This document shows, one piece after another, positions 2,274 to 64,000 of a DNA stretch of 64,000 bases. Origin of the DNA: an uncultured Acidimicrobiia bacterium (lineage in GTDB: Bacteria; Actinomycetota; Acidimicrobiia; Acidimicrobiales; AC-14). How positions within the stretch are numbered: position 1 is the first letter of the stretch; every line of letters starts with the position of its first letter. Below the pieces are notes generated by a model. That model did no database searches and had not been told where the DNA came from. It was given only the letters and a program-made list of their open reading frames with translations. The stretch lies in the NCBI GenBank assembly GCA_963825765.1, contig CAWGUU010000018.1, positions 16,401-80,400 on the forward strand. Reading direction: 5' to 3'. The position numbers were made by a program, and so were the translations under genes.

Positions 2274-2415
2274 GGGCTCCTCCATCACTCGTCGGACACG
2301 CAACTGCGGATTCAGGTGTAGCTACCCAACGCGGATACCGGCCAAGCCTGGCACGCCTACGTTGCGGCAAGGTTGTCACTGTGTGAAGGCGTTCACTAAT
2401 GTCCGACGCTGAGCG

Positions 2416-3911: not shown

Positions 3912-3924
3912 GACCGAATCCGTC

Positions 3925-4416: not shown

Positions 4417-4425
4417 GTACCGGCG

Positions 4426-4725
4426 ATGATGCTCAACCAGTTCCTCTTCCTCGCCGCGATCATCTTCTGCCTCGGTGTCTACGGAGTCCTGGCCCGCAAG
4501 AACGCCGTCCTGGTCCTCATGTCGATCGAGCTCATGCTCAACGCCGTGAACATCAACCTGATCGCCTTCGGCGCCTTCCGCGACAACGTGATCGGTCAGG
4601 TCTTCGCCGTCTTCGTCATCGCCATCGCCGCCGCCGAGGTCGGCGTCGGGCTGGCCATCGTCCTGCTCATCTACCGCAACCGCGCCAACATCGACCTGGA
4701 CCAGGCCGATCTGATGAAGGGCTAG
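4426..4725 (+). CDS. nuoK: NADH-quinone oxidoreductase subunit K (NuoK)
   Basis: 99 aa; ...[17 protein letters not shown]... Confidence 0.95.
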
Positions 4726-4736
4726 GGCGCCGCCCG

Positions 4737-6728: not shown

Positions 6729-6751
6729 AACCCCCGAGGAGTCTCTGAGCA

Positions 6752-9795: not shown

Positions 9796-9861
9796 AGCTG
9801 CCGGTCGGGGATCGTCCTGTCGGCGATGTGAGTTGCCGACCTGGCTCGGCGGCGCGGGCCG

Positions 9862-10845
9862 GTGCGCTTCGACCGGGTGGTCGAGCTGGCGTTGTACGAC
9901 GCCGACGGCGGTTTCTACGAGCAGGGTGGCGGCGCCGGTCGTGGCGGCGCCGATTTCATCACCAGTCCCGAGGTGGGGCCACTGTTCGGTACCGTCCTCG
10001 CCGGCGCGCTGGACGGCTGGTGGCGGGAGCTGGGTAAGCCCGACCCGTACGTCGTCGTGGAGGTGGGGGCGGGCACGGGCACGCTGGCGGCCGCGGTCCT
10101 GGCCGCCGCTCCGGACTGCTCGCCGGCCCTGCGCTACATGCCGGTGGAGCGTTCCGCGGCCCTGCGCGCACGGGCCAGGCCGGGGCTGGAGATGCGGGCC
10201 GAGCCGCCACTAGGCCCCTTCGACGGGGTCGTGGTGGCCAACGAGCTTCTCGACAACCTGCCCTTCCGGCTCCTGGAGCGCACGCCCTCGGGTTGGGACG
10301 AGGTGTTCGTCGGCGCCGACCTGGTGGAGGAGCTTCAGCCGGCAGACGATGCAGCGGCGGCCGAGGCCGTGCGGCTGGGGCCGGGCGCAGCCGTCGGCGC
10401 CCGGATCCCCCTCCAGCACCAGGCCCGGGACTGGCTCGTCGACGCCCTGTCGAGGCTTCGCCGGGGCAGGGTGGTGGTCGTCGACTACATGGACACCACG
10501 CCGTCGATGGCCGGCCGCCCGTGGAGCGAATGGGTCCGGACCTACCGCGGCCACGGCCGTGCCGGCGGTCCGCTGGAAGGGCTCGGCACCGCCGACATCA
10601 CCTGCGAGGTGGCGCTCGACCAGCTGGCCGCGGTCCGCGCTCCCGACGAGGACCGCACCCAGGCCGAGTTCCTCGGCGCCCATGGCATCCAACGCCTCGT
10701 CGAGGTGGCCCATGCCGAGTGGCTCGAGCGGGCTGCCATCGGCGACCTCCGGGCCCTGAAGGCCAGGAGCCGGGTGACCGAGGCCGCCGCCCTCACTGAT
10801 CCGTCCGGGCTGGGGGCGTTCAGGGTCCTGGAATGGCGGGTCTGA
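9862..10845 (+). CDS. SAM-dependent methyltransferase, MidA/NDUFAF7-like (DUF185)
   Basis: GTG start; VVEVGAGTGTLAAAVL SAM motif, ...ANELLDNLPF..., MidA family architecture; directly downstream of nuoN. Confidence 0.7.
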   Translation: MRFDRVVELALYDADGGFYEQGGGAGRGGADFITSPEVGPLFGTVLAGALDGWWRELGKPDPYVVVEVGAGTGTLAAAVLAAAPDCSPALRYMPVERSAALRARARPGLEMRAEPPLGPFDGVVVANELLDNLPFRLLERTPSGWDEVFVGADLVEELQPADDAAAAEAVRLGPGAAVGARIPLQHQARDWLVDALSRLRRGRVVVVDYMDTTPSMAGRPWSEWVRTYRGHGRAGGPLEGLGTADITCEVALDQLAAVRAPDEDRTQAEFLGAHGIQRLVEVAHAEWLERAAIGDLRALKARSRVTEAAALTDPSGLGAFRVLEWRV

Positions 10846-10898
10846 TCCCGAAAGCCTGCTCTAAACTCCGAAAAGCCTGCTCTAAATTCCGAAAGACA
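10846..10898 (+). promoter_or_regulatory. two 21-bp direct repeats plus partial third upstream of acs (candidate operator/promoter element)
   Basis: tcccgaaagcctgctctaaac / tccgaaaagcctgctctaaat / tccgaaagaca; AT-richer than surroundings; ends 23 bp before acs ATG. Confidence 0.4.
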
Positions 10899-10920
10899 GT
10901 GGCCGATAGGCTCCCGGGAC

Positions 10921-12882
10921 ATGGCTGACCCGGCGACCATCGAGGCGTACTACCTCGAGGACCGCACCTTCCCGCCCTCCGAGGAGTTCAAGAAGAACGC
11001 CCTCGTCGTCGACAACTCCATGCACGAGGAGGCCGAGACCGACTTCGAGGGCTTCTGGGCCCGGCAGGCGGCCGAGCTCCTCGACTGGGACTCCGAGTGG
11101 GACACCATCCTGGAGTGGGAGCTGCCGTTCGCCAAATGGTTCGTCGGCGGCACGCTGAACGCCTCGGCCAACTGCGTCGACCGCCACGTGGCCGCCGGCA
11201 AGGGCGACAAGGTCGCCTTCCACTGGGAGGGCGAGCCCGGCGACACCCGCACCATCACCTACGCCGACCTGTGCGAGGAGGTGCAGAAGTTCGCCAACGT
11301 CCTGAAGTCGCTGGGCGTGGCCAAGGGTGACAGGGTCAACGTCTACCTGCCGATGATCCCCGAGCTGCCGGTGGCGATGCTGGCCTGCGCCCGGATCGGG
11401 GCGGCCCACTCCGTGGTCTTCGGCGGGTTCTCGTCCGACGCCTTGCGTGACCGGATCAACGACGCCGAGGCCAAGGTGCTGGTGACCGCCGACGGCGGGT
11501 GGCGGCGGGGCAAGGCGGTACCGCTCAAGGACAACGCCGACGCCGCCGTCGAGGGGACGCCCACCATCGAGCACGTGGTGGTGGTCAAGCGCACCGGGGC
11601 CGACGTGGCGTGGGTCGAGGGCCGAGACCAGTGGTACGCCGACCTCATGGAGGGCGCCTCCGCCGACTGCCCGGCCGAGCCGATGGACTCGGAGCAGCTC
11701 CTGTACCTGCTCTACACGTCAGGCACCACGGCCAAGCCCAAGGGCCTCATGCACACCACCGGCGGGTACCTCACCCAGGTCGCCTTCACCCACAAGTACG
11801 TCTTCGACCACCACCCCGACACCGACGTGTACTGGTGCGCGGCCGACATCGGCTGGGTCACCGGCCACAGCTACATCGTCTACGGCCCGCTGGCCAACGG
11901 GGCCACGTCGATCCTGTACGAGGGCAGCCCCGACTTCCCCGAACGTGACCGGTGGTGGTCGATCGTCGAGCGCTACAAGGCGACGATCCTCTACACCGCC
12001 CCCACCGCCATCCGCACGTTCATGAAGTGGGGCGCGGAGTTCCCGGCGGGGCGCGACCTGTCGTCGCTCCGGGTGCTCGGGTCGGTGGGCGAGCCCATCA
12101 ACCCCGAGGCGTGGATGTGGTACTCGGAGAACATCGGCGGCGGTCGTTGCCCGGTGGTCGACACCTGGTGGCAGACCGAGACGGGCGCCATCCTCATCTC
12201 ACCCCTCCCCGGGGCGACGACCACCAAACCGGGTTCGGCCACGTTTCCGCTCCCGGGGATCGCCGCCGAGGTGGTGGACGAGAAGGGCAACTGCGTGGCA
12301 GAGGGGGGTGGGTACCTCACCCTCACCCGGCCCTGGCCGAGCATGCTCCGGGGCATCTACGGCGACCCCGAGCGCTACCACCGGACGTACTGGTCACGCT
12401 TCGAGGGCCGCTACTTCGCCGGCGACGGGGCCAAGATCGACGCCGACGGCTACCTGTGGCTGCTCGGCCGGGTCGACGACGTGATGAACATCTCCGGACA
12501 CCGGATATCGACCGCGGAGGTGGAGTCGGCGCTGGTCCACCACCCCTCGGTGGCGGAGGCGGCGGTCGTCGGGGCCAAGGACGCCACCACCGGCCAGGCC
12601 ATCATCGCCTTCGTCACGCTGAAGGGCGACGTGGAGGCCGACGCCGAGCACGGCGAGGCCCTCCGGCAGCACGTGGCCCAGAAGATCGGCCACATCGCCC
12701 GGCCCAAGACGGTGATCTTCACCGACGACCTGCCCAAGACCCGCAGCGGCAAGATCATGCGCCGGCTTCTCCAGGACGTGGCCGAGGGCCGAGATCTGGG
12801 CGACACGACCACCCTTGCCGACGCCGGCGTGGTGGAGGAGATCAAGAAGCGGGCCAACGCCGGCGCGGGCGATCAGGATTAA
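10921..12882 (+). CDS. acs: acetyl-coenzyme A synthetase
   Basis: 653 aa; [14 protein letters not shown]-binding motif; strong family resemblance. Confidence 0.95.
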
Positions 12883-13422
12883 GTGTCGCAAGGAGCAGAG
12901 AAGCCGGGGCCGGAGGAGGACGTCGAGCTGCAGATCCCCTCCCACTGGGAATGGCGGGACGGCCCTGTCGAACCGGGCCCGGCCGTCGTCTTCGACATCG
13001 ACGGCGTGCTCTCCGACGCCACCAACCGCCAGCACTTCCTCGAGGGGGAGGGCGACAAGAAGGACTGGCGGGGGTTCTTCGACGCCTGCGGCGACGACCC
13101 GCTCCTCGAGGACGTGGCCGGGCTGGTCGAGGTGATCGACCGCGACCTCACCGTCGTCCTCCTCACCGGCCGGCCCGTGCGGGTGCAGCCGGCCACGCTG
13201 GCCTGGCTGGAGCGCTACGGCGTGCGCTGGGACCTGCTGATCATGCGCAACCGGGGCGACTACTCGACCGCCCCGGAGTTCAAGCGCCAGACCGTCGGCG
13301 AGCTGCGGGAACGGGGCTTCGACCTCCGCCTGGCCTTCGAGGACGACGTCCGCAACCGGGACATGTTCAAGAGCGAGGGCGTGCGCTGCGTGTACATCCA
13401 CTCCGGCTACTACGAGAACTGA
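12883..13422 (+). CDS. HAD-superfamily phosphatase-like protein
   Basis: GTG start immediately after acs stop; VVFDIDGVL (HAD motif I), VLLTGRP. Confidence 0.6.
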   Translation: MSQGAEKPGPEEDVELQIPSHWEWRDGPVEPGPAVVFDIDGVLSDATNRQHFLEGEGDKKDWRGFFDACGDDPLLEDVAGLVEVIDRDLTVVLLTGRPVRVQPATLAWLERYGVRWDLLIMRNRGDYSTAPEFKRQTVGELRERGFDLRLAFEDDVRNRDMFKSEGVRCVYIHSGYYEN

Positions 13423-48877: not shown

Positions 48878-49520
48878 CGAGTCGTGACTCACCTTCCCGG
48901 GACCCGCGCGGCCCGAGCTGCCAGTCCACGACGAAGTCGGATGCTTCAGCGGGCGCCACCTTGACGGCCAGGCGTGCCAGGTGGCCAGCCGGGATCGGGG
49001 CGCGCCGGCTGCGGGGCGCGGCTGCCACTCGGCACGAGGGCGACGGCTTGGGCGGAGCGGGCCTGTAACCCAGTTGTGTTGACATTCGCTTCCCTCCACG
49101 TCATGGCTGTGGAGGCCCGGCCCCAGCCAGGAAGAGCGGGGCCTCTCCGGCGACGAGCTGGTCAGCTCCTTCCGGGCGTCGGAACAGTTGTCTTCGCGAT
49201 GCGCGGCGCTGGCGCCACCACCCGTGGCGTAGCGGGCGGCAAACGCCGTTCGAGGCGACGACGCCGACGTGCTTCCGAGACGGCCCACATGGCGAGATGC
49301 ATCTGCCGATCGCCGCGCATTGGAACCACCCTTCCGTCCGCTGATCTGGATGCTGAAACTCGTTGCCGACGCGCCAACCCGATGCGTCCGCGACTCAGAC
49401 CTTTTCACTCAGAAGGGGCGGCCAGCTAGGCGGATGTCTACGGGAAACTGCTCAGTACGACTACGGGGGCGCCCGACACTCTTAGGCGACTCAACCCCAC
49501 TAGCACGCGGTGGCTACGGC

Positions 49521-50171
49521 CTACTGCTCTTGGGGAACGATGCCCCGGCGGACCGCGTAGATTGCGAGCTCGACGGGGGTCCGCAGGCCCAGCTTCTTCA
49601 TCGCATGCGCTCGGTGCGTCTCCACGGTCCGCCGACTGATGAACAACTGTGCGCCGATGGCGGCGTTCGTGTGGCCCTGCGCCACGAGTTGCAGGACCTC
49701 CCGCTCGCGGTCGGTGAGGGTGTCGTAGGGGTCGGGGGGTTCCCCGGCGCGGCGAGAGTACGCCTCCAGGGCACGCTCCGACAGCGGTGGGCTGAGGTAG
49801 CGGCGTCCGGCGGCCACTTCCCGGATGGCCCGTCCCAGCTCCGCCGCGTCCGCCTGCTTGAGGGCGTAGCCCGAAACGCCCCTTCGCAGTGCCTCGAGCA
49901 CGTAGGCCTCGCTCTGGTGCATGGACAAGATGAGAACGCGAGTCGCCGGCGAGCGCTCAGCCAGCTCCGGGGTGACGTCGAGGCCGCTCCTCGCACCCAT
50001 CATAAGATCGAGCACCACGACATCGGGATGGAGTTGGCCAGCCAGCGTGGCCACGTCATCGCCGTTATCGGCCTGGCCCACCACCTCGAAGTCGGGGTCG
50101 GAGTCCAGCAGGGCCCGGAGACCCTCTCGTACCACCGGGTGGTCGTCGGCGAGGACGAGCCTGAGTGTCAT
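49521..50171 (-). CDS. NarL/FixJ (LuxR)-family response regulator
   Basis: receiver LVLADDHPVVREGL...VVLDLMM + HTH REREVLQLVAQGHTNAAIGAQLFISRRTVETH. Confidence 0.9.
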   Translation of the reverse strand: MTLRLVLADDHPVVREGLRALLDSDPDFEVVGQADNGDDVATLAGQLHPDVVVLDLMMGARSGLDVTPELAERSPATRVLILSMHQSEAYVLEALRRGVSGYALKQADAAELGRAIREVAAGRRYLSPPLSERALEAYSRRAGEPPDPYDTLTDREREVLQLVAQGHTNAAIGAQLFISRRTVETHRAHAMKKLGLRTPVELAIYAVRRGIVPQEQ

Positions 50172-52813
50172 GGAATCACACTCGGACGCTCGCTAAGCGG
50201 AAACTGGGCGATCACCCAGGTGCCGCCGCCGAGTTCGGAGCGCAACCGAAACTGGCCCCCGGTCGCGCGGGCTCGCTCCTCCATCCCGACCAGGCCGCTG
50301 CTCTGCCCGGGCCGGAGGGCGTCAACCTCGAAGCCGACGCCTTCGTCGCTCACTTCGATGCGCAGTGAGTCTTCGCTCAGGGCACAGCCGACCGTGGCCA
50401 GGCTGACCCCGGCGTGGCGGGCGACGTTGGTGAGCCCCTCCTGCACGATCCGGAAGGCGGCCGTCTCGACCTCTGGCCGGAGGCGCCGGTCCAGCCCCGG
50501 AGCCTTGAAGGCCACCTCCACCCCCGTCTGGGCGGTATACCGCTCCACGAGCCACAGAAGGGCTGGTCGAAGGCCCAGGTCGTCGAGCATGGCGGGACGG
50601 AGGTCGAGGGAAAGATCCTGCACCCGGCGCAGGAGCTCGCCCACCAGGGCTCGCGCCAGGCCCAGTCGATCTGCCACCGCCTCCGGGGAAAGGCGCACGT
50701 GGTTCTCCAGCGCGAGCTTGAGACCAGTGAGAGTCTGGCCGATCTCGTCATGCAGCTCGTGGGCGATGCGCCGCCGCTCGCCCTCCTGAGCGTCCACCGC
50801 TGCCCTCGAGTGGGTCTCGAGGCGCTGGCGCAGCCGGCGCTCCTCGTCGTGGGCGGACCGAAGGGCCTTTTCCACCTCGGCGCGGCCGATCACCTCGGCC
50901 AGGGTGTTGGCGGCGGCATGGAGGAAGTGGGCGTCATCGACGTTGAAGCGTCGTCGCCTGCTCGCGTAAGCACCCAGAACCCCCCACGGAGCGGCCCGCC
51001 CCATGATGACGACACTCATCCCGCTCACCACCCCGTGGTCGACCAGCAGCGGCGGGGCCCCGAAGCGGGTCTCCCGGGCGAGGTCCTCCACCACCACTGG
51101 GGCGTCGCAGGCCAGGGTGAAGCCGGCCTGGGACCCCAGCCCGGCCGCGACCGTGGCCTGGCCCACCAGTCCCTCCTCCCACCCCACCCCCGCCCGCAGG
51201 AGCAAGACGTCATCTTCCGGCAGCAGCTCGAGGACCTCGGCGTACTCCACGTCGAGGGTGCGGGCGACGGCGTCGACGGCGGCATCCATAAGAGAAGAGA
51301 GATCGGGGTCGGCCAGCGCCCGGCGACCGAGCTCGGCCACGACAGCCTGCTGGTGGGCCCGAGTGGCGAGCTCGGCCTCGACCCGACCACGGGCTACGGC
51401 GTCGGCCACCACGTTGGCCACCGCCCGCAGGAAATGGATGTCGTCGAGTCCGAAGCTCCGGTGGCGCGTGGTGTCGGCGCCGAGCACGCCGTAGGGCTCG
51501 TCATCGCTGCGGATGAGTACGGTCATGCCGGCGACCACCCCGTGGTCGACCAGCAGCGGCGGGGCCCCGAAGCGGGTCTCCCGGGCGAGGTCCTCCACCA
51601 CCACTGGGGCGTCGCAGGCCAGGGTGAAGCCGGCCTGGGACCCCAGCCCGGCCGCGACCGTGGCCTGGCCCACCAGTCCCTCCTCCCACCCCACCCCCGC
51701 CCGCAGGAGCAAGACGTCATCTTCCGGCAGCAGCTCGAGGACCTCGGCGTACTCCACGTCGAGGGTGCGGGCGACGGCGTCGACGGCGGCATCCATAAGA
51801 GAAGAGAGATCGGGGTCGGCCAGCGCCCGGCGACCGAGCTCGGCCACGACAGCCTGCTGGTGGGCCCGAGTGGCGAGCTCGGCCTCGACCCGACCACGGG
51901 CTACGGCGTCGGCCACCACGTTGGCCACCGCCCGCAGGAAATGGATGTCGTCGAGTCCGAAGCTCCGGTGGCGCGTGGTGTCGGCGCCGAGCACGCCGTA
52001 GGGCTCGTCATCGCTGCGGATGAGTACGGTCATGCCGGCGACCACCCCGTGGTCGACCAGCAGCGGCGGGGCCCCGAAGCGGGTCTCCCGGGCGAGGTCC
52101 TCCACCACCACTGGGGCGTCGCAGGCCAGGGTGAAGCCGGCCTGGGACCCCAGCCCGGCCGCGACCGTGGCCTGGCCCACCAGTCCCTCCTCCCACCCCA
52201 CCCCCGCCCGCAGGAGCAAGACGTCATCTTCCGGCAGCAGCTCGAGGACCTCGGCGTACTCCACGTCGAGGGTGCGGGCGACGGCGTCGACGGCGGCATC
52301 CATAAGAGAAGAGAGATCGGGGTCGGCCAGCGCCCGGCGACCGACCTCGGCCACGACAGCCTGCTGGTGGGCCCGAGTGGCGAGCTCGGCCTTGACCCGC
52401 TTGAGCTCGATGAGATCTCGGAATGTTGCGACGATCTCGGCCGGACCCTCGCCGGCGACGAGCTGAGCGCTGACCTCTACCGGGACGCGATGCCCATCCC
52501 TGTGTACAAGGTCGCACTCGTAGTGTCGTGGCACCTCCTCGCCGGCGAGGCGGCGCCTGGCCCGGTCGGCGATGAGATCCCGGGAGTCTGGGGTGACGAG
52601 ATCGGCGAACGGTCTCACTGTCAAGACCTCCTTGACGGAATAGCCGATCAGAGAGCCGAACGCCTCGTTGACAAGCAGCGCGCGCTCGGGATTGCCGACA
52701 ACCAGGCCCACCCCCAGATCGCCCAACACCTGAGGAAGACTCCTGTACCAAGGGCGATCCTCCTCAGGCGGCCCGGCCATTCCGGTCATGGCCAGCTCGG
52801 GTGCCATGGGCAC
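50168..52813 (-). CDS. sensor histidine kinase, PAS-GAF-GAF-GAF-HisKA_3-HATPase_c
   Basis: HELHDEIGQTLTGL H-box (HisKA_3), GLTNVARHA/ELGGGTWV ATPase; tandem near-identical 169-aa GAF units; stop overlaps response regulator start. Confidence 0.85.
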   Translation of the reverse strand: MPMAPELAMTGMAGPPEEDRPWYRSLPQVLGDLGVGLVVGNPERALLVNEAFGSLIGYSVKEVLTVRPFADLVTPDSRDLIADRARRRLAGEEVPRHYECDLVHRDGHRVPVEVSAQLVAGEGPAEIVATFRDLIELKRVKAELATRAHQQAVVAEVGRRALADPDLSSLMDAAVDAVARTLDVEYAEVLELLPEDDVLLLRAGVGWEEGLVGQATVAAGLGSQAGFTLACDAPVVVEDLARETRFGAPPLLVDHGVVAGMTVLIRSDDEPYGVLGADTTRHRSFGLDDIHFLRAVANVVADAVARGRVEAELATRAHQQAVVAELGRRALADPDLSSLMDAAVDAVARTLDVEYAEVLELLPEDDVLLLRAGVGWEEGLVGQATVAAGLGSQAGFTLACDAPVVVEDLARETRFGAPPLLVDHGVVAGMTVLIRSDDEPYGVLGADTTRHRSFGLDDIHFLRAVANVVADAVARGRVEAELATRAHQQAVVAELGRRALADPDLSSLMDAAVDAVARTLDVEYAEVLELLPEDDVLLLRAGVGWEEGLVGQATVAAGLGSQAGFTLACDAPVVVEDLARETRFGAPPLLVDHGVVSGMSVVIMGRAAPWGVLGAYASRRRRFNVDDAHFLHAAANTLAEVIGRAEVEKALRSAHDEERRLRQRLETHSRAAVDAQEGERRRIAHELHDEIGQTLTGLKLALENHVRLSPEAVADRLGLARALVGELLRRVQDLSLDLRPAMLDDLGLRPALLWLVERYTAQTGVEVAFKAPGLDRRLRPEVETAAFRIVQEGLTNVARHAGVSLATVGCALSEDSLRIEVSDEGVGFEVDALRPGQSSGLVGMEERARATGGQFRLRSELGGGTWVIAQFPLSERPSVIP
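51030..52340 (-). repeat. 507-bp tandem repeats inside the kinase gene: two perfect copies (51030..51536, 51537..52043) plus about 290 bp of a third, then diverged copies
   Basis: identical nucleotide strings read directly; matching identical shadow ORFs at 507-bp spacing in the six-frame track. Confidence 0.85.
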
Positions 52814-52860
52814 ACGCTAGACCTTCCCGTAGCGGAGGGGACGGGGAGTCGGCGATCACC

Positions 52861-53892
52861 CTATGGAAACACCGGGCGCCCGCTACCGTGTCGCAGCGAG
52901 TGGGCCGTGAGCTCGTCGGGCAGCCCGGCCGCCCTGCGGTAGAGCGCGAAACGCGCGCTGAGATGGTGGACGGACATCCGGGCGCCACGCTCCGTGAGCC
53001 ACATGGCCGGGTGGCAGTCCTGTCCGTAGGTGGGGCGGACAACGGTGAGGTACTCGTCGACCACCTCGACCGCCCAAGGCATCACCGTGGCCACATTGCG
53101 GCGGCGTGGCGGGCCACCCCGCATGGCCTTGCCGTAGCGAACGAGCAGCATCCCGTAACGGCCGAGCTCGGGTGCGGCCGCGTTGGTGGAAAAATCCCCG
53201 ATGTCGAGCATCACCGCCTCTCGCCGGCGCAGTCCCCAGGCGTAGATCACCTTGAAGAGGACGGCGTCTCGGAAGGCGGGGAGCCACCCCTTGCGGCCCA
53301 GGCTCCGAATCTTCGCCACCCGCTCGGCGGCGTACTCGTAGAAGGCGATGAGCTCCTCCCGGCTGAACGGGCGTCGCCCGGGACCTCCTTCGTAGTCGGC
53401 CACGTGGTCGGCGGTGTTCCACTCGTGGCATATCTGGACCGGGTGCTCGCCGAAGCGCTCCTCGCATTCTGGGCCCCATCGGTAGCGGGCGTCGGTGACG
53501 TAGGACATGAACAGCCCGAGGACGATCTGGTAGTTGCGGACCGTCGAATGGGCTCGCTTGTCCGACATCAACGAGCTGCTCCACGCCTCGACGTCCTCAG
53601 GGCCCCACCTCCACGGGTAGTCGTTCGTGAAGCGCTGGGACCGCCGGACATGCCCTCGCGGCCGCCGATCGTGGTTGCGGTCAGCAGCCGGCTCTGCTGC
53701 TGGGTGCGCCACCCGGCGAATGGCATCGAACACAGCAGTCTCGGGGTGAAGGAGAATGGCTCCTCGCACGAGGGCCAGATGCGCGGCTCCGGGCGTCTCG
53801 GAACGCTGTCCCATCCACCCCTCCGGCCAGGTCGCTAGATGCAACCGCGTTGCATCCAACGCAACCTTGGAGGAAAAGGCCAGGTAGATCAA
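52861..53892 (-). pseudogene. tyrosine-type site-specific integrase, 3'-truncated (ends 8 codons after HxxR box; catalytic Tyr region absent)
   Basis: RRREAVMLDIGDF and LTAHSLRHG motifs; no continuation in any frame; truncation point abuts kinase start. Confidence 0.6.
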
Positions 53893-55962: not shown

Positions 55963-56038
55963 GGCACGACCGGCCCGGACACCGGTCCGGGCGGTACATG
56001 ACAGACTTGGATCGACGTGAAGCGAAAGGGCACCGAGG

Positions 56039-56203
56039 ATGGCGAAGGGCGAGAAGCGAGTGAAGATCACGCTCGCGTGCGAGCAGTGCAAGCGGCGGAA
56101 CTACATCACGATGAAGAACAAGCAGAACGACCGCGAGCGCATGGAGCTCAAGAAGTACTGCCGCTGGGATCGGACGCACACGACCCACCGCGAGACTCGC
56201 TGA
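56039..56203 (+). CDS. rpmG: 50S ribosomal protein L33
   Basis: [54 protein letters not shown], 54 aa, not in six-frame list (<60 aa). Confidence 0.9.
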
Positions 56204-56325
56204 CCGACGACGAGCAGCCCTCCGAGGCTGCCACCAAGCCCAAACCTGCCACGTCTGGACCGAAACCTGCCACGTCTGGACCGAAACGTGGCCGTAACCT
56301 TTCGGATCCCGCAGAGGTCCAACCT

Positions 56326-56907
56326 GTGGTGATCCCTGCGGATGAGGCAGAGCTGGTGGCACGGGCCAAGGCTGGCGACGTCAATGCCTTCGCCGCCCTG
56401 GTCACGACCACGCAGGCCGAGGTGTACACCCTGGCGTACCGGTTGACGGGGAACGAGGAGGACGCCCGCGACGTCGCCCAGGATGCCTACCTGCGAGCGT
56501 ACAAGGGCCTCAAGCATTTCCGGGGCGACGCCAGGTTCTCGACCTGGATGTACCGGATCACGGCCAACTGCGCCTCCACCGCGTTGGTCCGCAGGTCCCG
56601 CAACGGATCCCACGAGCCTCTGCCCGACGAGGACGCCACGCCCGACGTGCGCCCCGAGTCGAACCCCGAGAGCATGGCCGAGGCCGGTGCCCTCCGCGAC
56701 AGGATGACGGCGGCTCTCGCCGAGCTCTCGCCCCCCCTGCGCTCGGTCGTGGTGCTGCGTGACATCTACGACCTCCCGCACGAGGCCATCGCCTCGGAGC
56801 TGGGCATCACCGAGGCGGCGGCGAAGGTGCGGTTGCACCGGGCCCGTCGCAAGCTTCGTGAGCGGTTGTTCCCGTTGCCGGGAGAGGAGAAGGCCCGTGC
56901 GGTCTAG
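56326..56907 (+). CDS. ECF sigma factor (SigE/SigH-like)
   Basis: region 2 (YRLTGNEEDARDVAQDAYLRAYKGLKHFRGDARFSTWMYRI) and region 4 (LSPPLRSVVVLRDIYDLPHEAIASELGITEAAAKVRLHRARRKLR); GTG start approximate. Confidence 0.75.
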   Translation: MVIPADEAELVARAKAGDVNAFAALVTTTQAEVYTLAYRLTGNEEDARDVAQDAYLRAYKGLKHFRGDARFSTWMYRITANCASTALVRRSRNGSHEPLPDEDATPDVRPESNPESMAEAGALRDRMTAALAELSPPLRSVVVLRDIYDLPHEAIASELGITEAAAKVRLHRARRKLRERLFPLPGEEKARAV

Positions 56908-56911
56908 GTTC

Positions 56912-57346
56912 ATGCTCTTGCGTCCAGCCATCCAGGGTGGCTTGTGGTCGGCCACGCGCGGAAGCCTGTTGCCCAGCGGCGTGTCCTGCTCTGCGGTCGC
57001 CAAGGCCCTGCCGGGCATCGTCGACGGCATGGAGGTGGCCGATCTCGATCTGCGCCGCCACGTCGACTCCTGCCTGCGGTGCCAGGCCGAGCTGGCCCAG
57101 TACCGCAAGGTGCTACGGGCCCTCCACCAGATGCGCACGGAGCTGCTCGAACCCGCGCCCGGACTGTTGCCCGACATCCTCGCCTCGCTGGAGGCCGCGG
57201 GGGAGCGGCGGGCCATGCGCTTCCTGCTCACCGGCCGCCAGGCCGCCTACGTCGGCACCATCGCCGCCGCCACTGCGGCCAGCGCAGCCGGTGCCATCGT
57301 GCTGGCCAGCCGCGCCCGCCACCGTCGCGTGCCCGTCGCCAGCTAG
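56912..57346 (+). CDS. anti-sigma factor, zinc-finger (ZAS/RsrA-RseA-like) with C-terminal TM
   Basis: RRHVDSCLRCQAEL (HxxxCxxC) right after sigma gene; hydrophobic C-terminal segment. Confidence 0.55.
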   Translation: MLLRPAIQGGLWSATRGSLLPSGVSCSAVAKALPGIVDGMEVADLDLRRHVDSCLRCQAELAQYRKVLRALHQMRTELLEPAPGLLPDILASLEAAGERRAMRFLLTGRQAAYVGTIAAATAASAAGAIVLASRARHRRVPVAS

Positions 57347-58670: not shown

Positions 58671-59099
58671 ATGGCAAAGCGACGGGTAGCAGCAGTCGTG
58701 AGGATCCAGATCCCGGCCGGCGCGGCCACACCCGCGCCTCCCGTCGGCACCGCCCTGGGCCCCCACGGCGTGAACATCATGGAGTTCTGCAAGCAGTACA
58801 ACGCGGCCAGCGAGTCGCAGCGGGGAACGATCGTCCCGGCCGAGATCACCGTGTTCGAGGACCGCTCGTTCACGTTCATCCTCAAGACGCCGCCGACGCC
58901 CGTACTGCTGCGCACCGCCGCCGGGGTCGAAAAGGGGTCGGAGACCCCAGGACGAACCGGTGTCGGTTCGATCACCGACGCCCAGCTGGCCGACATCGCC
59001 AACGTGAAGATGCCCGACCTCAACGCCAACGACCTCGAGGCGGCCAAGCGCCAGATCGCCGGCACGGCCCGCTCGATGGGGATCACGGTTTCCAAATGA
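58671..59099 (+). CDS. rplK: 50S ribosomal protein L11
   Basis: [36 protein letters not shown]. Confidence 0.95.
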
Positions 59100-59833
59100 C
59101 GCACACCAAGAAGGACTCCAAGAAGTACCAGGACGCCGTCCGCCGGTTCGACGAGCAGCTCCTGCACAACCCGGGTGAGGCCGTCGACCTGGTGAAGAGC
59201 CTGGCCTTCGCCAAGTTCGACGAGACCGTCGAGCTGGCGGTGCGCCTGGGCGTCGACCCCCGCAAGGCCGACCAGATCGTGCGAGGCACCGTCGGTCTGC
59301 CGGCAGGTACGGGCAAGATGGTCCGGGTCGTGGTATTCGCCGCCGGCGAGGCCGCCAATGACGCCCGGGAGGCGGGTGCCGACGTCGTGGGCGCCGACGA
59401 CCTGGTCGCTCGGGTGCAGGGCGGGTTCCTCGACTTCGACGTTGCCATCGCCACGCCTGACCTCATGGGACAGGTCGGCAAGCTGGGCCGGGTCCTCGGC
59501 CCCCGGGGCCTCATGCCGAACCCCAAGACCGGCACCGTCACCATGGAAGTCGGCCGGGCGGTCAAGGAGTTCAAGGGCGGTCGGGTGGAGTACCGCACCG
59601 ACCGCTACGGAAACATCCACGTCCCCATCGGCAAGGTGAGCTTCGACCGCCGTGCCCTGCTGGAGAACCTGCGGGCCGTCATCGACGAGCTCAACCGGGC
59701 CAAGCCGGCTTCCTCCAAGGGCAGGTACATGCGCGGGGTCACCATCTCGTCCACCATGGGTCCGGGCGTGAAGATGGACCCCAGCGCGGCGCGTGCGCTC
59801 GAGGACGACCTGGCTGCGGCTGGCCCGTCGTAG
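59096..59833 (+). CDS. rplA: 50S ribosomal protein L1
   Basis: ATGA overlap with rplK; ...[24 protein letters not shown]...[19 protein letters not shown]. Confidence 0.95.
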
Positions 59834-60027
59834 CCGCGTAGCGTTCCAACACCTGGCTGTTGGAGCCCCGAATCGCCTCCAACACCCCCGGGAATCCGGC
59901 GGAAAGCTTCCTGTCAGCCTCCTCCCCGAAGTAGTCTGCCGCCGCGAGCTGGGCGTTCCGCGTGGCGTGGCGGTGTGCTCCCGGTTGAGCGGTCGAAGTG
60001 CACAGCGCCAACGAAGCGAGGCTGACG

Positions 60028-63000
60028 ATGCGGGCGTCAAGGGCTGGATTCACGACGGCGGCCACGGGGAGCAGGGGCAGGGGCAAGGGGACGCCGGCGC
60101 TGGTAGGCGCGATGCTGGCATCGCTCCTTGTGTTCCTGGGCGCGGCTGCGGGCCCGGCGACGGCACAGACCGAAACGCCGACCACGGAGCCGCAGGCCTC
60201 CGAGGCGCCGGCCACCACCGACACCGCCGCGGCCTTGGGCGGCGAGACGCCCGCCGACGCAGGCCCCGCGTCCGGGGATGCGGGGTCATCCGGCGAGAGC
60301 GCCGACACGGGCAAGGCGACCAGCTCGGCGAACTCGGGAGCCAGCTCGAACGCAACCGGCCGACCGGGCCCGAGCGGTGACGCCCGGAACCTGACCAACG
60401 CCGTCGCCGCCGGGGGCGAGGGGGGCGAGGGCGGTATCGCCGGGTCGCTCTCCGTCGGAGCCGACGGCGTTGTCGCGTCCGTAGGTACCAGCGGCTCGAG
60501 TGGCGCCCTCAGCGGAGTCGTCGCCTCGATCGCCGATGCGTCCGGCGGGGCCGGCGGGTCGGCGCTGGTGGCGCTCTCACCGGTGGCCCTTTCCGGCGAT
60601 ACCGGTTCGGCCACCGCCCAGTCCTCTGCCACCAACACGGGTGCCACCGGTGACGCCAGCTCGACGGCCGTCGCCAACCCGACCTCGACCTCAGGTTCAA
60701 CCGGGAACAGCAGCGGCACGGGCGGCTCGGCCACGCCCAACCCCTTCGCCCTCAACACGGGCATCCTGAGCATCACGCCGGTGACTCGAGAGGGCGGCGT
60801 CGGGAGCACCACCCAGACCTCCGGCGGGAACCCCCTCGGCGGCATCGGCGTCGCCTCCGGCTCCTCGCCGAACGAGTCCGCCGATTCAGGTTCAACCGGT
60901 AACTCCGGAGCGGTGTCCTCGATCGGCCTGGCCAGCAGCTCGGCGAACTCCGGCGCGTCAAGTACGTCCACGAGCGTCTCCGGTGACACCGGTGACGCGG
61001 TCAACGACATCGACGTCCTCGCCCTCGGCGGCGAAGGCGGCGACGGCGGCTTCGCCCTCCCGATCGCCCTCGGTGGCAGTGCCGCCAATGTGATCGTCGG
61101 CACGCCCGGCGCGGCCGGTGGGGCCGGCGGGGCCGACGTCGGCGCGGCCGGCGGCGCGGGCGCGGCCGGTGCCGATGATGTCGGCGGCGCTGGTGGTGCA
61201 GGTGGCGCGGGTGGAGCAGGTGGAGCCGGTGGCGTGGGTGTCCCGCCTGCGGCCGGTGGAGCAGGCGGCACGGGTGGAGCCGGCGGCGCGGGCGGTGGCG
61301 GCGCGCCCGGTACCGGCGGCGCAGGCGGTGCGGGCACAACCGGTGGAGCGGCGGCCGGTGGCGCCGGCGTCGCGGGCGGCACGGGTGGGGGAGCGTCCGG
61401 GAGCCCCACGGCGGTCGGAGGCAGCGCCATCGCTGTCGGCACCGCCGACGGTGGCGCGGGTGGCGATGCCACGGTCACGTTCGGCAGTCCGACTGCAGTG
61501 TCCGGGAGCTCGGGCGCCTCGGTGGCCCAGAGCAGCAGCACGAACAGCGGCGACACCGGCGACGCGGAGTCCGAGGCGGAATCCAGCCCGACCGCGGTGT
61601 CCGGCGACACGGGTGACTCCGGCGACACGGGTGACGTGGCGTCCAGCCCGACGGCCGCCAACTCGGCGATCCTCGGCGCGGCCATCGTGATCGACGGCGA
61701 CGTCGAGTCCGGCGACTCCGGTGACACCGGCACCACCGGCGACGCCGCCGCGGTCGGCGCGGCCACCAGCTTCGCCAACAGCGGGGCCAACAGCGACGTC
61801 GTGTCCACGTCCGGCGACACCGGCTCGGCGGAGAACGACGTGGAGGCCCTGGTCGTGGCCGGCGAGGGTGGCGACGGCGGCATCGTCGTTCCCATCGCCG
61901 TGGGCGGCGACGCCCTCAACGTCCTGGCCGGCGCGGCCGGTGGCACCGGCGGTACGGGTGGCGCCGCCACCGGCGGGGCCGGCGGCGCGGGTGGCGCAGG
62001 AGGCGCCGGAACGGGCGGGGCCGGTGGGGCGGGTGGCGGCGGCGGGGCCGGCGGGGCGGGCGGGGACTCAGCGGCGGTCACCGTCGTGGTCGGCGACCCC
62101 GCTCCGGTGATCGCACCCATCGTCACCGGCGGGCAGGGCGGTGCGGGCGGCGCCGGTGGGGCGGGCGGCACGGGCGGCATCGGCACGGGCGGTGCGGGCG
62201 GCACGGGTGGGGCGGGCGGCGCCGCGGCCGGCGGCGGGGGCGGCGCGGGAGGCGCTGGAGGCGCGGCCACAGGAAGTCCCACCGCCATCGGCGGCGCGGC
62301 GATCGCGGTCGGCTCCGCCGACGGGGGTGCCGGAGGATCGGCCACGTTCTCGGCCAGCCCCGAAGCCCGGTCCGGAGCCTCGGGCGCCACGAGCGCCAAG
62401 ACGTCGGCCACCAACACCGGCGACACCGGCGACGCCGACTCGAGCGCGGAGTCGAGCCCGTCGGCCGTCTCCGGCGACTCCGGCGACTCCGGTGACACTG
62501 GCGACGCCACATCCAGCCCGTCGGCCACCAACACAGGCCTTTTGGGCGCGGCAGTTGCCATCGGTGGCGACGTCGAGTCCGGCGACTCCGGCGCCTCGGG
62601 TGCCACCGGCAACGCCGCAGCAGTTGGCGCGGCGTCGAGCTTCGCCAACTCCGGCGCCAACGCCGACGGCGTCTCGGTCTCGGGTGACACGGGCGCGGCC
62701 GCCAACGACCTCGACGTGCTCGTCCTGGCCGGTGAGGGTGGCGACGGCGGCGTGGCCATCCCCGTGGCCCTCGGCGGCGATGCCACCAACGTGATGCTCG
62801 GTGGCGCCGGCGGTGGCGGCGGCACGGGCGGCGCGGCCACAGGCGGTGCCGGAGGCCTGGCCGGCGCCGGTGGCGCAGGGCTCGGCGGCGCCGGCGGTGG
62901 CGGTGGCACAGGCGGTGGCGGCGGGGCCGGCGGGTCGGCCACCGAGGTCTCCACCGTCGTCAACACCATCAACGTGGCCGGCGGAGACGCCGCCGTCGCG

Positions 63001-64000
63001 GTCACGATCGTCCCGATCGTCAGCGGCGGCGCCGGCGGCGCGGGCGCGCTCGGCGGCGCTGGCGGTGCCGGCGGCGGGGGCCTCGGCGGCGCAGGTGGCA
63101 CCGGCGGCACCGGCGGTACGGCAACCGGGGGTGCCGGCGGCGCCGGCGGTGCCGGTGGGACCGTGTCGGGCAGCCCGACGGCGGTCACCGGGCCCACCGT
63201 GGCCACAGCTTCGGCCGGCGGCGGCGCAGGTGGGGCGGCGAGCCTCATCACCAACAGCCCCATCGCGACCTCGGGCGCCTCGGGCTCTTCCAGCACCCAG
63301 GTTTCGGCCACCAATACGGGCGACACCGGCGACGCGTCGTCCAGCGCCGAGGCCAGCCCCGTCGCCGTGTCCGGCGACTCGGGCGACTCGGGCGACTCGG
63401 GCAGTGCCACCTCCACCCCCACGGCCGCCAACGGCTCGATCCTCGGGATCGCCCTTGCGGTCGGCGGAGACGCCGAGACCGGCGACACGGGTGTCACCGG
63501 CGACACAGGCGCATCGGTCGGCGTGGGTACCGCGTCCAGCACCGCCATCTCCGGGGCCAGTGCCTCCGGCGTGTCCTTCTCGGGCGAGACCGGCTCGGCT
63601 GCGAACGAACTCGACCTTGTCGTCGTCGGCGGCGAGGGTGGCGACGCCGGCCTCGCTCTGGCCGCGTCGGCCGGCGGCAACGCCACCAACGTCATGGTCG
63701 GCGGAGCCGCGGGCGTCGGCGGGGTCGGTGGCGCGGCCACGGGTGGAGCCGGAGGCGCAGGCGGGAGCGGCGGAGCGGGCTTCGGCGGCTTCGGCGGCGC
63801 GGCCGGCGGCGGTGGCGCGGGCGGTGGCGGCGGCGCGGCAGTCGCGAACGACGCCGTCGTCACCACGATCACCACGGCCAACGGCGACGCCACCGTCACC
63901 ACCCTCGACGCCCCCATCGTCAGCGGTGGAGCGGGAGGTGCGGGCGCCGGTGGTGGCGCGGGCGGTGCCGGCGGGCCCGGCACCGGCGGCACAGGTGGTA
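60028..64000 (+). CDS. giant secreted Gly/Ala/Ser/Thr/Asp-rich repeat protein (PGRS-like beta-roll/beta-helix-type), 3'-partial (>1320 aa)
   Basis: GCGAGG RBS + ATG 60028; signal peptide MRASRAGFTTAATGSRGRGKGTPALVGAMLASLLVFLGAAAGPATA/Q; manual translation open to window end; about 830-900-bp imperfect repeats each containing SSPTAVSGDTGDSGDTGD...GDVESGDSG...NDxDxLxxxGEGGDGG...GGDAxNV plus GGAGGxGG tracts. Confidence 0.6.
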   Translation, partial: MRASRAGFTTAATGSRGRGKGTPALVGAMLASLLVFLGAAAGPATAQTETPTTEPQASEAPATTDTAAALGGETPADAGPASGDAGSSGESADTGKATSSANSGASSNATGRPGPSGDARNLTNAVAAGGEGGEGGIAGSLSVGADGVVASVGTSGSSGALSGVVASIADASGGAGGSALVALSPVALSGDTGSATAQSSATNTGATGDASSTAVANPTSTSGSTGNSSGTGGSATPNPFALNTGILSITPVTREGGVGSTTQTSGGNPLGGIGVASGSSPNESADSGSTGNSGAVSSIGLASSSANSGASSTSTSVSGDTGDAVNDIDVLALGGEGGDGGFALPIALGGSAANVIVGTPGAAGGAGGADVGAAGGAGAAGADDVGGAGGAGGAGGAGGAGGVGVPPAAGGAGGTGGAGGAGGGGAPGTGGAGGAGTTGGAAAGGAGVAGGTGGGASGSPTAVGGSAIAVGTADGGAGGDATVTFGSPTAVSGSSGASVAQSSSTNSGDTGDAESEAESSPTAVSGDTGDSGDTGDVASSPTAANSAILGAAIVIDGDVESGDSGDTGTTGDAAAVGAATSFANSGANSDVVSTSGDTGSAENDVEALVVAGEGGDGGIVVPIAVGGDALNVLAGAAGGTGGTGGAATGGAGGAGGAGGAGTGGAGGAGGGGGAGGAGGDSAAVTVVVGDPAPVIAPIVTGGQGGAGGAGGAGGTGGIGTGGAGGTGGAGGAAAGGGGGAGGAGGAATGSPTAIGGAAIAVGSADGGAGGSATFSASPEARSGASGATSAKTSATNTGDTGDADSSAESSPSAVSGDSGDSGDTGDATSSPSATNTGLLGAAVAIGGDVESGDSGASGATGNAAAVGAASSFANSGANADGVSVSGDTGAAANDLDVLVLAGEGGDGGVAIPVALGGDATNVMLGGAGGGGGTGGAATGGAGGLAGAGGAGLGGAGGGGGTGGGGGAGGSATEVSTVVNTINVAGGDAAVAVTIVPIVSGGAGGAGALGGAGGAGGGGLGGAGGTGGTGGTATGGAGGAGGAGGTVSGSPTAVTGPTVATASAGGGAGGAASLITNSPIATSGASGSSSTQVSATNTGDTGDASSSAEASPVAVSGDSGDSGDSGSATSTPTAANGSILGIALAVGGDAETGDTGVTGDTGASVGVGTASSTAISGASASGVSFSGETGSAANELDLVVVGGEGGDAGLALAASAGGNATNVMVGGAAGVGGVGGAATGGAGGAGGSGGAGFGGFGGAAGGGGAGGGGGAAVANDAVVTTITTANGDATVTTLDAPIVSGGAGGAGAGGGAGGAGGPGTGGTGG

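What the first reader, a model, noticed from the sequence alone, without database searches (positions are those of the whole stretch)
60028..64000. Giant secreted Gly/Ala/Ser/Thr/Asp-rich repeat protein (PGRS-like) immediately after rplA; antisense 1417-aa Pro/Ala ORF is its shadow
From an RBS-preceded ATG at 60028 a single forward frame stays open to the window end (>1320 codons). It encodes a cleavable signal peptide, then imperfect about 830-900-bp super-repeats. Each contains GGAGGxGG tracts (beta-roll/Ca-binding-like), a conserved SSPTAVSGDTGDSGDTGD...GDVESGDSG...SFANSGAN block and an NDxDxLxxxGEGGDGGxxxPxAxGGDAxNV block. No PE domain precedes it. Such a protein would be a major surface or extracellular structural or adhesin component. 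It is absent from the six-frame list because it has no stop in the window; the only listed ORF there (59739..63992, minus) is low-complexity P/A antisense.
Basis: seen in the sequence. Interest (0 to 1): 0.75.

Follow-up and report, generated by a model that had tools for sequence, protein, structure and literature searches.

The report
Giant wall-anchored surface repeat protein gene
This is a real, very large gene of an uncultured soil actinobacterium (Acidimicrobiales) for a secreted, probably cell-wall-anchored surface fibre, built from an undescribed 180-residue module alternating with glycine-rich spacers and inserted between two ribosomal-protein genes that are normally adjacent.

Summary
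From ATG 60028 the + frame is open to the window end (1324 codons). It encodes a signal peptide and 831-900-bp super-repeats.

The + strand is the coding strand:
- Its codon usage fits the genome.
- Orthologues after rplA in two Acidimicrobiia MAGs keep this frame open for 3291 and 1465 codons, while the antisense frame has stops.
- Substitutions are 0.14/0.14/0.36 per codon position.

Each repeat is a ~183-aa Gly/Ser/Thr/Asp module plus a 90-117-aa (GGX)n spacer. The module matches nothing in Pfam, NCBIfam or PDB sequences. It has only 81 relatives among 1.84 billion protein representatives, all unnamed or 'hypothetical'.

Metagenome relatives reach 3452-3702 aa with 14-17 modules. Eleven family C-termini end in LAxTG, a hydrophobic stretch and a basic tail, which is the class E sortase signal. 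The window's own C-terminus lies outside the window, so anchoring here is inferred.

It is not a PE_PGRS protein and not an RTX beta-roll. AlphaFold models are low confidence (pLDDT ~52), all-beta, with weak beta-solenoid matches.

The gene is a lineage-specific insertion between rplA and rplJ. My verdict is a new variant of a known kind, the sortase-anchored giant repeat surface protein.

The parts
59096..59833 (+). rplA (ribosomal protein L1), the gene immediately upstream. A 194-nt intergenic gap follows it.
   Evidence: Pfam Ribosomal_L1, E 2e-67. The gap has no terminator-like site, though one lies inside the ORF at 60109-60124, and its fold is no more stable than shuffles, z = -0.02.
60018..60021 (+). 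GAGG ribosome-binding site, 6 nt upstream of the ATG at 60028
   Evidence: Read directly from the sequence. The alternative starts, GTG 59998 and ATG 60112, lack an RBS or a charged n-region.
60028..60165 (+). Sec-type signal peptide, aa 1-46, with predicted cleavage ATA|Q
   Evidence: Basic n-region, 18-residue hydrophobic core and an AxA site. The h- and c-regions are conserved in L005, L001 and L085. This was judged by eye; no signal-peptide predictor was available.
60166..60414 (+). Mature N-terminus, aa 47-129: a Thr/Pro/Glu/Ala-rich stretch followed by a partial module. This would be the distal tip if the protein is anchored at its C-terminus.
   Evidence: It is the least conserved part against the L005 orthologue, at 40% identity.
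60415..61122 (+). First, variant module, aa 130-365, with an NPFALNTGIL...insert subtype
   Evidence: Unit alignment. The same N-terminal subtype is present in L085, L087 gene 2 and L088. It is 69% identical to L005.
61123..61395 (+). Spacer 1, aa 366-456: (GGX)n tracts
   Evidence: Over the three spacers lying between modules, Gly is 52% and Ala 24%. This spacer is 80% identical to L005 with no indels.
61396..61944 (+). Module 2, aa 457-639
   Evidence: Member of alignment A1. The whole ORF scores 805 bits against the HMM built from A1; the window's own modules are in that HMM.
61945..62265 (+). Spacer 2, aa 640-746: (GGX)n, a short hydrophobic element (AAVTVVVGDPAPVIAPIV), then (GGX)n
   Evidence: It is 86% identical to L005 with no indels.
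62266..62814 (+). Module 3, aa 747-929. This was the target of both structure predictions.
62815..63165 (+). Spacer 3, aa 930-1046: (GGX)n, a hydrophobic hairpin-like element (TEVSTVVNTINVAGGDAAVAVTIVPIVSGG), then (GGX)n
   Evidence: It is 87% identical to L005 with no indels.
63166..63714 (+). Module 4, aa 1047-1229
   Evidence: It is 84% identical to L005.
63715..64000 (+). Spacer 4, aa 1230-1324, cut off by the end of the window. The gene continues beyond it.
   Evidence: There is no stop before base 64000. The L005 orthologue continues for at least 3291 codons.
59739..63992 (-). Antisense 1417-aa Pro/Ala-rich ORF. It is a shadow of the + gene, not a gene itself.
   Evidence: Its codon-usage score is 0.15, against 0.44 +/- 0.10 for reference genes, and AGG makes up 83% of its Arg codons. 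The equivalent frame carries stops in L005 (12690, 17457, 17907) and in L001 (1025, 2831). It also overlaps the 3' end of rplA. Pfam and NCBIfam give no hits.

Best explanation
The region is the 5' 4 kb of a very large + strand gene, at least 10 kb in the closest orthologue.

Shown:
- The product has an N-terminal Sec-type signal peptide.
- It then has a tandem array of ~277-300-aa units. Each unit is one ~183-aa Gly/Ser/Thr/Asp-rich module, acidic and free of Cys, Trp, His and Tyr, plus a 90-117-aa spacer. The spacer consists of two (GGX)n tracts around a short hydrophobic element.
- The module is an autonomous, previously undescribed domain. It also occurs alone in ~205-aa secreted proteins, and in ~240-aa proteins that carry a C-terminal membrane helix.

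Inferred:
- After Sec export, the far C-terminus, which lies outside the window, carries an LAxTG sorting signal, as in the multi-module relatives. A class E sortase would then link the protein covalently to peptidoglycan.
- The array projects outward as a long acidic fibre.
- The poorly conserved N-terminal tip would be the exposed, interacting end.
- The function would be an adhesin or a surface-coat or structural fibre.
- The modules are probably all-beta, possibly beta-solenoid.
- The spacers are length-constrained, so they are probably folded (PGRS-like polyglycine-II packing is a candidate) rather than floppy linkers.
- The gene entered this lineage between rplA and rplJ. It may be read through from the rplKA operon, because no terminator is seen.
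For: Coding strand:
- The + frame codon-usage score is 0.35, inside the range of 16 reference ORFs (0.30-0.60). The minus frame scores 0.15.
- Orthologues directly after rplA keep the + frame open: 3291 codons in L005 and 1465 in L001. Their shadow frames are broken by stops.
- Substitutions against the orthologues are 0.14/0.14/0.36 per codon position. Past the signal peptide all indels add up to multiples of 3, and the 2- and 20-nt indels near the start net 18 nt.

Architecture:
-.
- Orthologous units are 78-86% identical and paralogous units 56-69%, so the array is old and positionally stable.

Family:
- The profile search found 81 proteins at E<=1e-3 among 1.84e9 representatives.

Anchor:
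- Eleven family C-termini (L086, L087a, L089, L090a, P0035, P0057, P0065, P0066, P0069, P0087, P0094) end in LA[RLTF]TG, about 20 hydrophobic residues and a basic tail. None has LPxTG.
- Class E sortases of soil and freshwater Actinobacteria recognise LAXTG (PMC5148588).

Spacers:
- They are as conserved as the modules (80-87% identity). There is not a single indel across aa 366-1229 against L005.

Fold:
- Two independent AlphaFold2 runs place most beta-strands at the same positions.

Insertion:
- rplJ follows rplA within 1 kb in 60 of 66 Acidimicrobiia loci, and directly in L003, whose rplA is 86% identical to the window's.
Against: - The C-terminus of this protein, and of its two true orthologues, was not reached. 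The sorting signal is seen only in relatives whose modules are 50-62% identical.
- No sortase gene lies in the window or next to the metagenome giants.
- The curated LPXTG_anchor model scores only 13.9 bits against a cutoff of 15.9.
- Some small family members use a plain C-terminal membrane helix, and some have no anchor at all.
- The signal peptide was judged by eye.
- There are no expression data, and a fibre or adhesin function is not demonstrated for any member.
Confidence: 0.65

Rival explanations
1. The protein is secreted but not covalently anchored. It would be released as an extracellular matrix, S-layer-like or biofilm protein, or held by a membrane helix, instead of being sorted by a sortase.
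For: The C-terminus of this protein is unseen. Family members include anchor-less single-module proteins (P0002, P0024, P0010) and members anchored by a membrane helix (P0014, P0015, P0030, P0032). No sortase gene was found in the window.
Against: Every multi-module member whose C-terminus could be read, namely the four ORFs L086, L087a, L089 and L090a plus P0087 and P0094, ends in LAxTG, a hydrophobic stretch and a basic tail. Sortase genes are commonly unlinked to their substrates (general knowledge).
Confidence: 0.17
2. The modules assemble as a functional amyloid or curli-like beta-solenoid fibre, analogous to chaplins or CsgA, and polymerise on the surface instead of acting as a monomeric stalk.
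Against: The model has pLDDT 53 and the rmsd to CsgA is 6.8-7.0 A. Pfam gives no match at all, so none to curlin-repeat or chaplin families. The protein is highly acidic and covalently tandem, which does not require polymerisation.
Confidence: 0.07
3. It is a PE_PGRS-type or RTX-type protein: a glycine-rich Ca-binding beta-roll, or an ESX-secreted PGRS domain.
For: There are twelve (GGX)n>=4 runs, spacers with FGG/AGG triplets much like PGRS, and an acidic composition.
Against: There is no PE domain and no Pfam hit, and the N-terminus is a Sec-type signal peptide. There are 0 RTX nonapeptides. phmmer against 8000 proteins sharing Gly-rich words gave nothing at E<=1e-3. The organism is Acidimicrobiales. 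PE_PGRS is defined by a PE domain, a GRPLI linker and a PGRS domain (PMC9436101).
Confidence: 0.03
4. The real gene is the minus-strand 1417-aa Pro/Ala-rich ORF, or the region is non-coding repeat DNA.
For: The minus frame is also stop-free across the region and shares the GC-rich wobble position. Public gene calls on related contigs sometimes chose the minus strand.
Against: Minus-frame codon usage is about 2.9 SD below the reference genes. The minus frame has stops in all orthologues and relatives, while the + frame stays open for up to 3702 codons. Family HMM hits occur on + frames only. The minus ORF overlaps the 3' end of rplA. Third-position substitution excess and 3n indels show the region is coding.
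Confidence: 0.01

Closest known systems
Sortase-anchored giant repeat surface proteins of Gram-positive bacteria (LPXTG/LAXTG substrates). Class E sortase substrates of Actinobacteria, such as the long chaplins ChpA-C, are the nearest case.
   Same: It has an N-terminal signal peptide and a long tandem array of repeated domains. In family members the C-terminus has LAxTG, a hydrophobic segment and a basic tail, which is the class E signal (PMC5148588).
   Different: The repeat module matches no known domain family in Pfam, NCBIfam or PDB sequences. The units are old and divergent, 56-69% aa and 72-76% nt identity, not near-identical. The anchor of this particular protein is unseen.
PE_PGRS proteins of Mycobacterium (PGRS domain, predicted polyglycine-II sandwich)
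   Same: The spacers consist of Gly-Gly-X triplet runs with Ala, Phe, Thr or Leu at X. The protein is acidic and has a surface location. The spacers are conserved in length, as expected for a folded glycine-rich element.
   Different: There is no PE domain or PE-type linker, the N-terminus is a Sec signal and not an ESX-5 substrate signal, the phylum class is different (Acidimicrobiia), and no sequence homology is detectable. The glycine tracts are only ~45-55 aa each and alternate with a non-PGRS module.
Beta-solenoid surface and fibre proteins (curli CsgA, autotransporter and TpsA beta-helices, RTX-like adhesin domains)
   Same: The module is predicted to be all-beta, and its low-confidence model superposes best on beta-solenoids. 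Its composition is Ser/Thr/Asn/Gly-rich.

Membership tests
PE_PGRS (Mycobacterium) | N-terminal PE domain | tested here: not met
   Pfam scan of the 1324-aa product at E<=1 returned 0 families. The N-terminus is a Sec-type signal peptide.
PE_PGRS (Mycobacterium) | Glycine-rich GGX triplet tracts (PGRS domain) | tested here: met
   There are twelve runs of (GGX)n>=4. The spacers lying between modules are 52% Gly and 24% Ala. This is a compositional resemblance only.
PE_PGRS (Mycobacterium) | Detectable sequence homology to, and taxonomic restriction to, mycobacteria | tested here: not met
   phmmer of the full protein against 8000 word-sharing candidates found none at E<=1e-3. The rplA neighbours place the window in Acidimicrobiales.
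RTX / beta-roll Ca-binding repeats | Tandem nonapeptide GGxGxDxUx | tested here: not met
   A regex search found 0 matches, and Pfam returned no family at E<=1. The DNA tandem periods are 9, 12, 14, 15, 18, 21, 24, 33, 42 and 51 nt, and none is 27 nt.
Sortase (class E, LAXTG) substrates | N-terminal secretion signal | tested here: met
   It has a basic n-region, an 18-residue hydrophobic core and ATA|Q, conserved in L005, L001 and L085. This was judged by eye, without a predictor.
Sortase (class E, LAXTG) substrates | C-terminal LAxTG, hydrophobic segment and positively charged tail | not testable with these tools
   The C-terminus lies beyond the window and beyond the 10-kb flank of orthologue L005. 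The feature is met in 11 other family members. The curated LPXTG_anchor model scores below threshold, 13.9 against 15.9 bits.
Sortase (class E, LAXTG) substrates | A class E sortase encoded in the same genome | not testable with these tools
   No TLxTC-type sortase ORF is present in the 64-kb window. The rest of the genome is not available.
New ~183-aa Gly/Ser/Thr/Asp module family (unnamed) | Significant match to the module profile (...SPxAxSGxSGxxxAQSSATNTGDTGxAxSxAxxxPxAxSGxSGxTGxTG...ANSGA...SGDTGxAxN...GEGGDGG) | tested here: met
   The window ORF scores 541 bits against the family HMM built from A3, on the + strand only. The window's own modules are part of that HMM. Independent members were found by profile search at E down to 1.8e-76.
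Curli / functional amyloid | Curlin repeat or chaplin domain; beta-solenoid fold | tested here: inconclusive
Length-variable 'periscope'-type repeat surface proteins | Near-identical DNA repeats that allow frequent changes in copy number | tested here: not met
   The units are 72-76% identical at nt level. They are collinear and orthologous between the window and L005, with no indels across aa 366-1229.

The most novel reading that the evidence does not exclude
A previously undescribed domain family defines a new class of giant (3000 to more than 3700 aa) class-E-sortase-anchored fibres in uncultured Acidimicrobiia. In this class, beta-solenoid-like modules alternate with folded, length-constrained polyglycine-II (PGRS-type) spacers. 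This would be the first PGRS-like structural element outside mycobacteria. In this lineage the gene sits inside the rplKA-rplJL cluster, so it may be co-expressed with ribosomal proteins as a dominant cell-surface coat.
Probability: 0.2. Interest if true: 0.65.

Novelty: new variant of a known kind. Interest (0 to 1): 0.5.

Why it matters
Acidimicrobiia are abundant in soil and water but are almost all uncultured, and their cell surfaces are essentially unknown. This locus supplies a concrete candidate for a major surface structure.

It also defines a domain family with no model in Pfam or NCBIfam. The family appears to be under-represented in protein databases: most hits are short fragments, and some public gene calls over the arrays are on the wrong strand.

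Finally, it offers a natural non-mycobacterial system for testing whether (GGX)n tracts fold into polyglycine-II bundles. The placement of a gene of at least 10 kb between rplA and rplJ, inside one of the most conserved bacterial gene clusters, is unusual in itself.

Tried and rejected
1. Retrieving the source genome by exact protein look-up of rplA and rplK: neither is on record.
2. Whole-protein homology search: no hit. The 8000-candidate word filter was probably flooded by Gly-rich words. Two profile searches returned only 22-23 short proteins and no giant ones.
3. Pfam and NCBIfam scans on both strands: nothing.
4. PDB sequence search: only synthetic or low-complexity linkers.
5. GC3 as a strand discriminator: useless, because the two frames share the wobble position.
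6. Gly period-3 Fourier test within single modules and spacers: not above shuffles, so I make no claim of strict triplet periodicity in the module.
7. Two AlphaFold2 runs: both have low confidence. The afdb50 fold library was unavailable.
8. Rfam, promoter and terminator scans and an RNA fold of the rplA-gene gap: nothing notable.
9. Testing whether L085 and L086 are two halves of one gene: the end overlap is only 80% identical, so they are not contiguous.
10. Looking for a sortase or conserved neighbours around the metagenome giants: only housekeeping genes such as pgk, tpi and COX3.
12. Literature searches for this family, or for PGRS-like proteins in other Actinobacteria, found nothing relevant.


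Full report
**Observation.** The + frame that starts at ATG 60028 has no stop up to base 64000, which gives 1324 codons. The nearest upstream in-frame stop is TGA at 59986. A GAGG sequence lies 6 nt upstream of the ATG. The product is 30% Gly, 20% Ala, 12% Ser, 10% Thr, 7% Val and 5% Asp. It has no Cys, Trp, His or Tyr, and Lys plus Arg make up under 1%. The visible mature part is about 106 kDa with a pI near 4. Residues 1-46 look like a Sec signal peptide ending in ATA|Q. The super-repeats are real: the GEGG anchors fall at aa 130, 335, 612, 902 and 1202, and 300-nt DNA copies are spaced 831, 870 and 900 nt apart at 72-76% identity. The minus ORF 59739..63992 is also there.

**Which strand codes.** The minus ORF shares its third codon position with the + frame, so the 85% GC3 says nothing about strand. 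Three other lines of evidence do.
- Codon choice. Sixteen reference ORFs of the window prefer C-ending codons (GGC 57%, GCC 64%, ACC 64%). The + frame does the same and scores 0.35, against a reference mean of 0.44, sd 0.10 and minimum 0.30. The minus frame is G-ending, uses AGG for 83% of its Arg codons, and scores 0.15.
- Orthologues. Directly after rplA, the Acidimicrobiia MAG contigs L005 (CAVXYA010000010.1) and L001 (JAWVFH010000145.1) encode proteins about 83% identical over more than 810 residues. Their + frames stay open for 3291 and 1465 codons, in both cases up to the end of the available DNA. Their antisense frames carry stops.
- Substitution pattern. Against these orthologues, substitutions are 0.14/0.14/0.36 per codon position. 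Past the signal peptide, all indels add up to multiples of three.

In the related loci and in the window, the family HMMs hit + frames only. The minus ORF is therefore a shadow.

**Anatomy.** Each unit consists of two parts.
- A ~183-aa module with the pattern ...GSPTAxGGxxIAVGxAxGGAGG..SPxAxSGxSGxxxAQxSATNTGDTGDAxSxAxxSPxAxSGDSGDSGDTGD...NTxLLG...GDxESGDSGxxGxTGxxxAxGxAxSFANSGA....SGDTGxAxNDLDxLVxAGEGGDGGxxxPxAxGGDAxNV.
- A 90-117-aa spacer with about 50% Gly. It has two (GGX)n tracts around a short hydrophobic element, for example TEVSTVVNTINVAGGDAAVAVTIVPIVSGG.

The window holds the signal peptide, a Thr/Pro-rich tip with a partial module, one variant module, three canonical modules, and four spacers of which the last is cut off. 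L005 has at least 11 units. Orthologous units are 78-86% identical between the window and L005, while units within one protein are 56-69% identical. The array is therefore old and positionally stable, not recently amplified. Against L005 the spacers are as conserved as the modules (80-87%), and there is not one indel between aa 366 and 1229. The N-terminal tip is only 40% identical. I read the indel-free glycine spacers as length-constrained and probably folded, and the divergent tip as the exposed end. Both readings are inferences.

**Family.** Pfam, NCBIfam and PDB sequence searches return nothing real. A profile of the module finds 81 proteins at E<=1e-3 among 1.84 billion cluster representatives. 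Nearly all are short fragments or small proteins, and those with a source name are called 'hypothetical' in Acidimicrobiales or Actinomycetota MAGs. The small members are informative:
- signal peptide plus one module, about 205 aa (P0002, P0024, P0010);
- signal peptide, half a module, an Ala/Pro linker and a C-terminal membrane helix (P0014, P0015, P0030, P0032, P0048, P0055);
- modules followed by a Cys-containing SVASG repeat motif and an LAxTG signal (P0035, P0057, P0065, P0066, P0087, P0094).

A scan of JGI metagenome contigs, plus ENA contigs reached through the small proteins, shows giant + strand ORFs. They are L086 (3702 aa, 17 modules), L087 gene 2 (3655 aa, 14), L090 (3452 aa, 15), L088 (2463 aa, 11) and L085 (1921 aa, 8), with 9 modules each in the partial ORFs of L082 and L083. 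Some have Gly-rich spacers like the window's. In others the modules abut directly.

**Anchor.** Four giant ORFs end inside their contigs: L086, L087 gene 1, L089 and L090 gene 1. All four finish the same way: a Gly/Ser/Ala/Pro linker, four to five SVASG repeats containing Cys, then LA[RL]TG, about 20 hydrophobic residues and a basic tail. With the database proteins that makes 11 LAxTG signals and no LPxTG. Class E sortases of soil and freshwater Actinobacteria use exactly this LAXTG signal (PMC5148588). The curated LPXTG_anchor model scores just below its cutoff, 13.9 against 15.9 bits. For the window's own protein and its two orthologues the C-terminus was out of reach, so anchoring here is inferred. 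No sortase gene lies in the window.

**What it is not.**
- It is not an RTX beta-roll. There are 0 matches to GGxGxDxUx and no Pfam hit of any kind.
- It is not a PE_PGRS protein. It has no PE domain, the N-terminus is a Sec signal and not an ESX-5 substrate signal, and no homology is detectable in an Acidimicrobiales genome (family definition from PMC9436101). Only the spacer composition resembles PGRS: twelve (GGX)n>=4 runs, with FGG/AGG triplets in relatives.
- It is not a 'periscope'-type variable repeat protein, because the units are only 72-76% identical at DNA level.

**Context.** The gene order is tRNA-Thr, tRNA-Met, tuf, an ECF sigma factor, tRNA-Trp, secE, nusG, rplK, rplA, then the giant gene. 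In L003, whose rplA is 86% identical, rplA is followed directly by rplJ, rplL and rpoB. Among 66 Acidimicrobiia loci with enough downstream DNA, rplJ starts within 1 kb of rplA in 60. L001 and L005 are among the six exceptions. Other family members sit in unrelated housekeeping contexts. The giant gene is therefore a lineage-specific insertion between rplA and rplJ. The 194-nt gap after rplA has no terminator-like site, is not unusually structured, and is about 50% identical to the orthologues' gaps. Read-through from rplKA is possible but untested.

**Verdict.** The beta-roll suggestion fails, and 'PGRS-like' is compositional only. The best explanation is a Sec-exported, probably class-E-sortase-anchored, acidic surface fibre built from an undescribed module plus glycine spacers, with a confidence of about 0.65. 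It is a new variant of a known kind. Function, fold and anchor for this particular protein remain to be shown.

Noticed in passing
window 59834-64000; L003 9096-14285; L001-L080: The giant gene sits between rplA and the place where rplJ-rplL-rpoB normally follow. rplJ lies within 1 kb of rplA in 60 of 66 related loci. This looks like an insertion of at least 10 kb into the conserved rplKAJL-rpoBC cluster, and only the window, L001 and L005 share it. L056 and L073 also lack an adjacent rplJ, and L040 and L052 have it about 1.5 kb away; none of these four was examined further.
   Followed up: partly
L082 2595-7017 and L083 3406-8325: Public gene calls on these contigs place minus-strand genes of 271-665 aa, with no Pfam match, over DNA whose + frames carry the module array. 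In these stretches the + strand modules hop between frames. That could mean assembly frameshifts or pseudogenes. Mis-stranded and fragmented calls probably explain why the family is nearly invisible in protein databases.
   Followed up: partly
L087 1-2223 / 2249-13213; L090 329-10684 / ~9650-11859: Two giant family genes lie head-to-tail. The first ends with an LAxTG signal, and the second starts with its own signal peptide shortly after it, or overlapping it in another frame.
   Followed up: no
L086 ~10750-10950; L087 ~1650-1850; L089 ~1000-1150; also P0035, P0057, P0065, P0087, P0094: A conserved C-terminal element of four to five roughly 14-residue repeats, 'xxSVASGxxxAxxx', containing the protein's only cysteines, sits just before the LAxTG signal. 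From memory it resembles the SVAxG repeats of YadA-like adhesin heads, but Pfam gave no hit at E<=1.
   Followed up: partly
window 56017-56907 (+), 56759-57346 (+): An ECF-type sigma-70 gene (Sigma70_r2 and r4) lies between tuf and tRNA-Trp/secE. It is followed by an overlapping 195-aa ORF with no Pfam match, which might be an anti-sigma factor.
   Followed up: no
window 49269-53838: The long + strand ORFs 49269-50789, 50414-52942 and 52801-53838 gave no Pfam match at E<=1e-5. Long minus-strand ORFs overlap them (50168-52813, 52861-53892), so the true coding strand and the gene content here are unresolved.
   Followed up: no
L081 9244-10714; L084 10001-10616: Small family members, with a single or half module plus a signal peptide, occur as isolated genes among metabolic and transporter genes. 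The module therefore also works outside giant arrays.
   Followed up: partly
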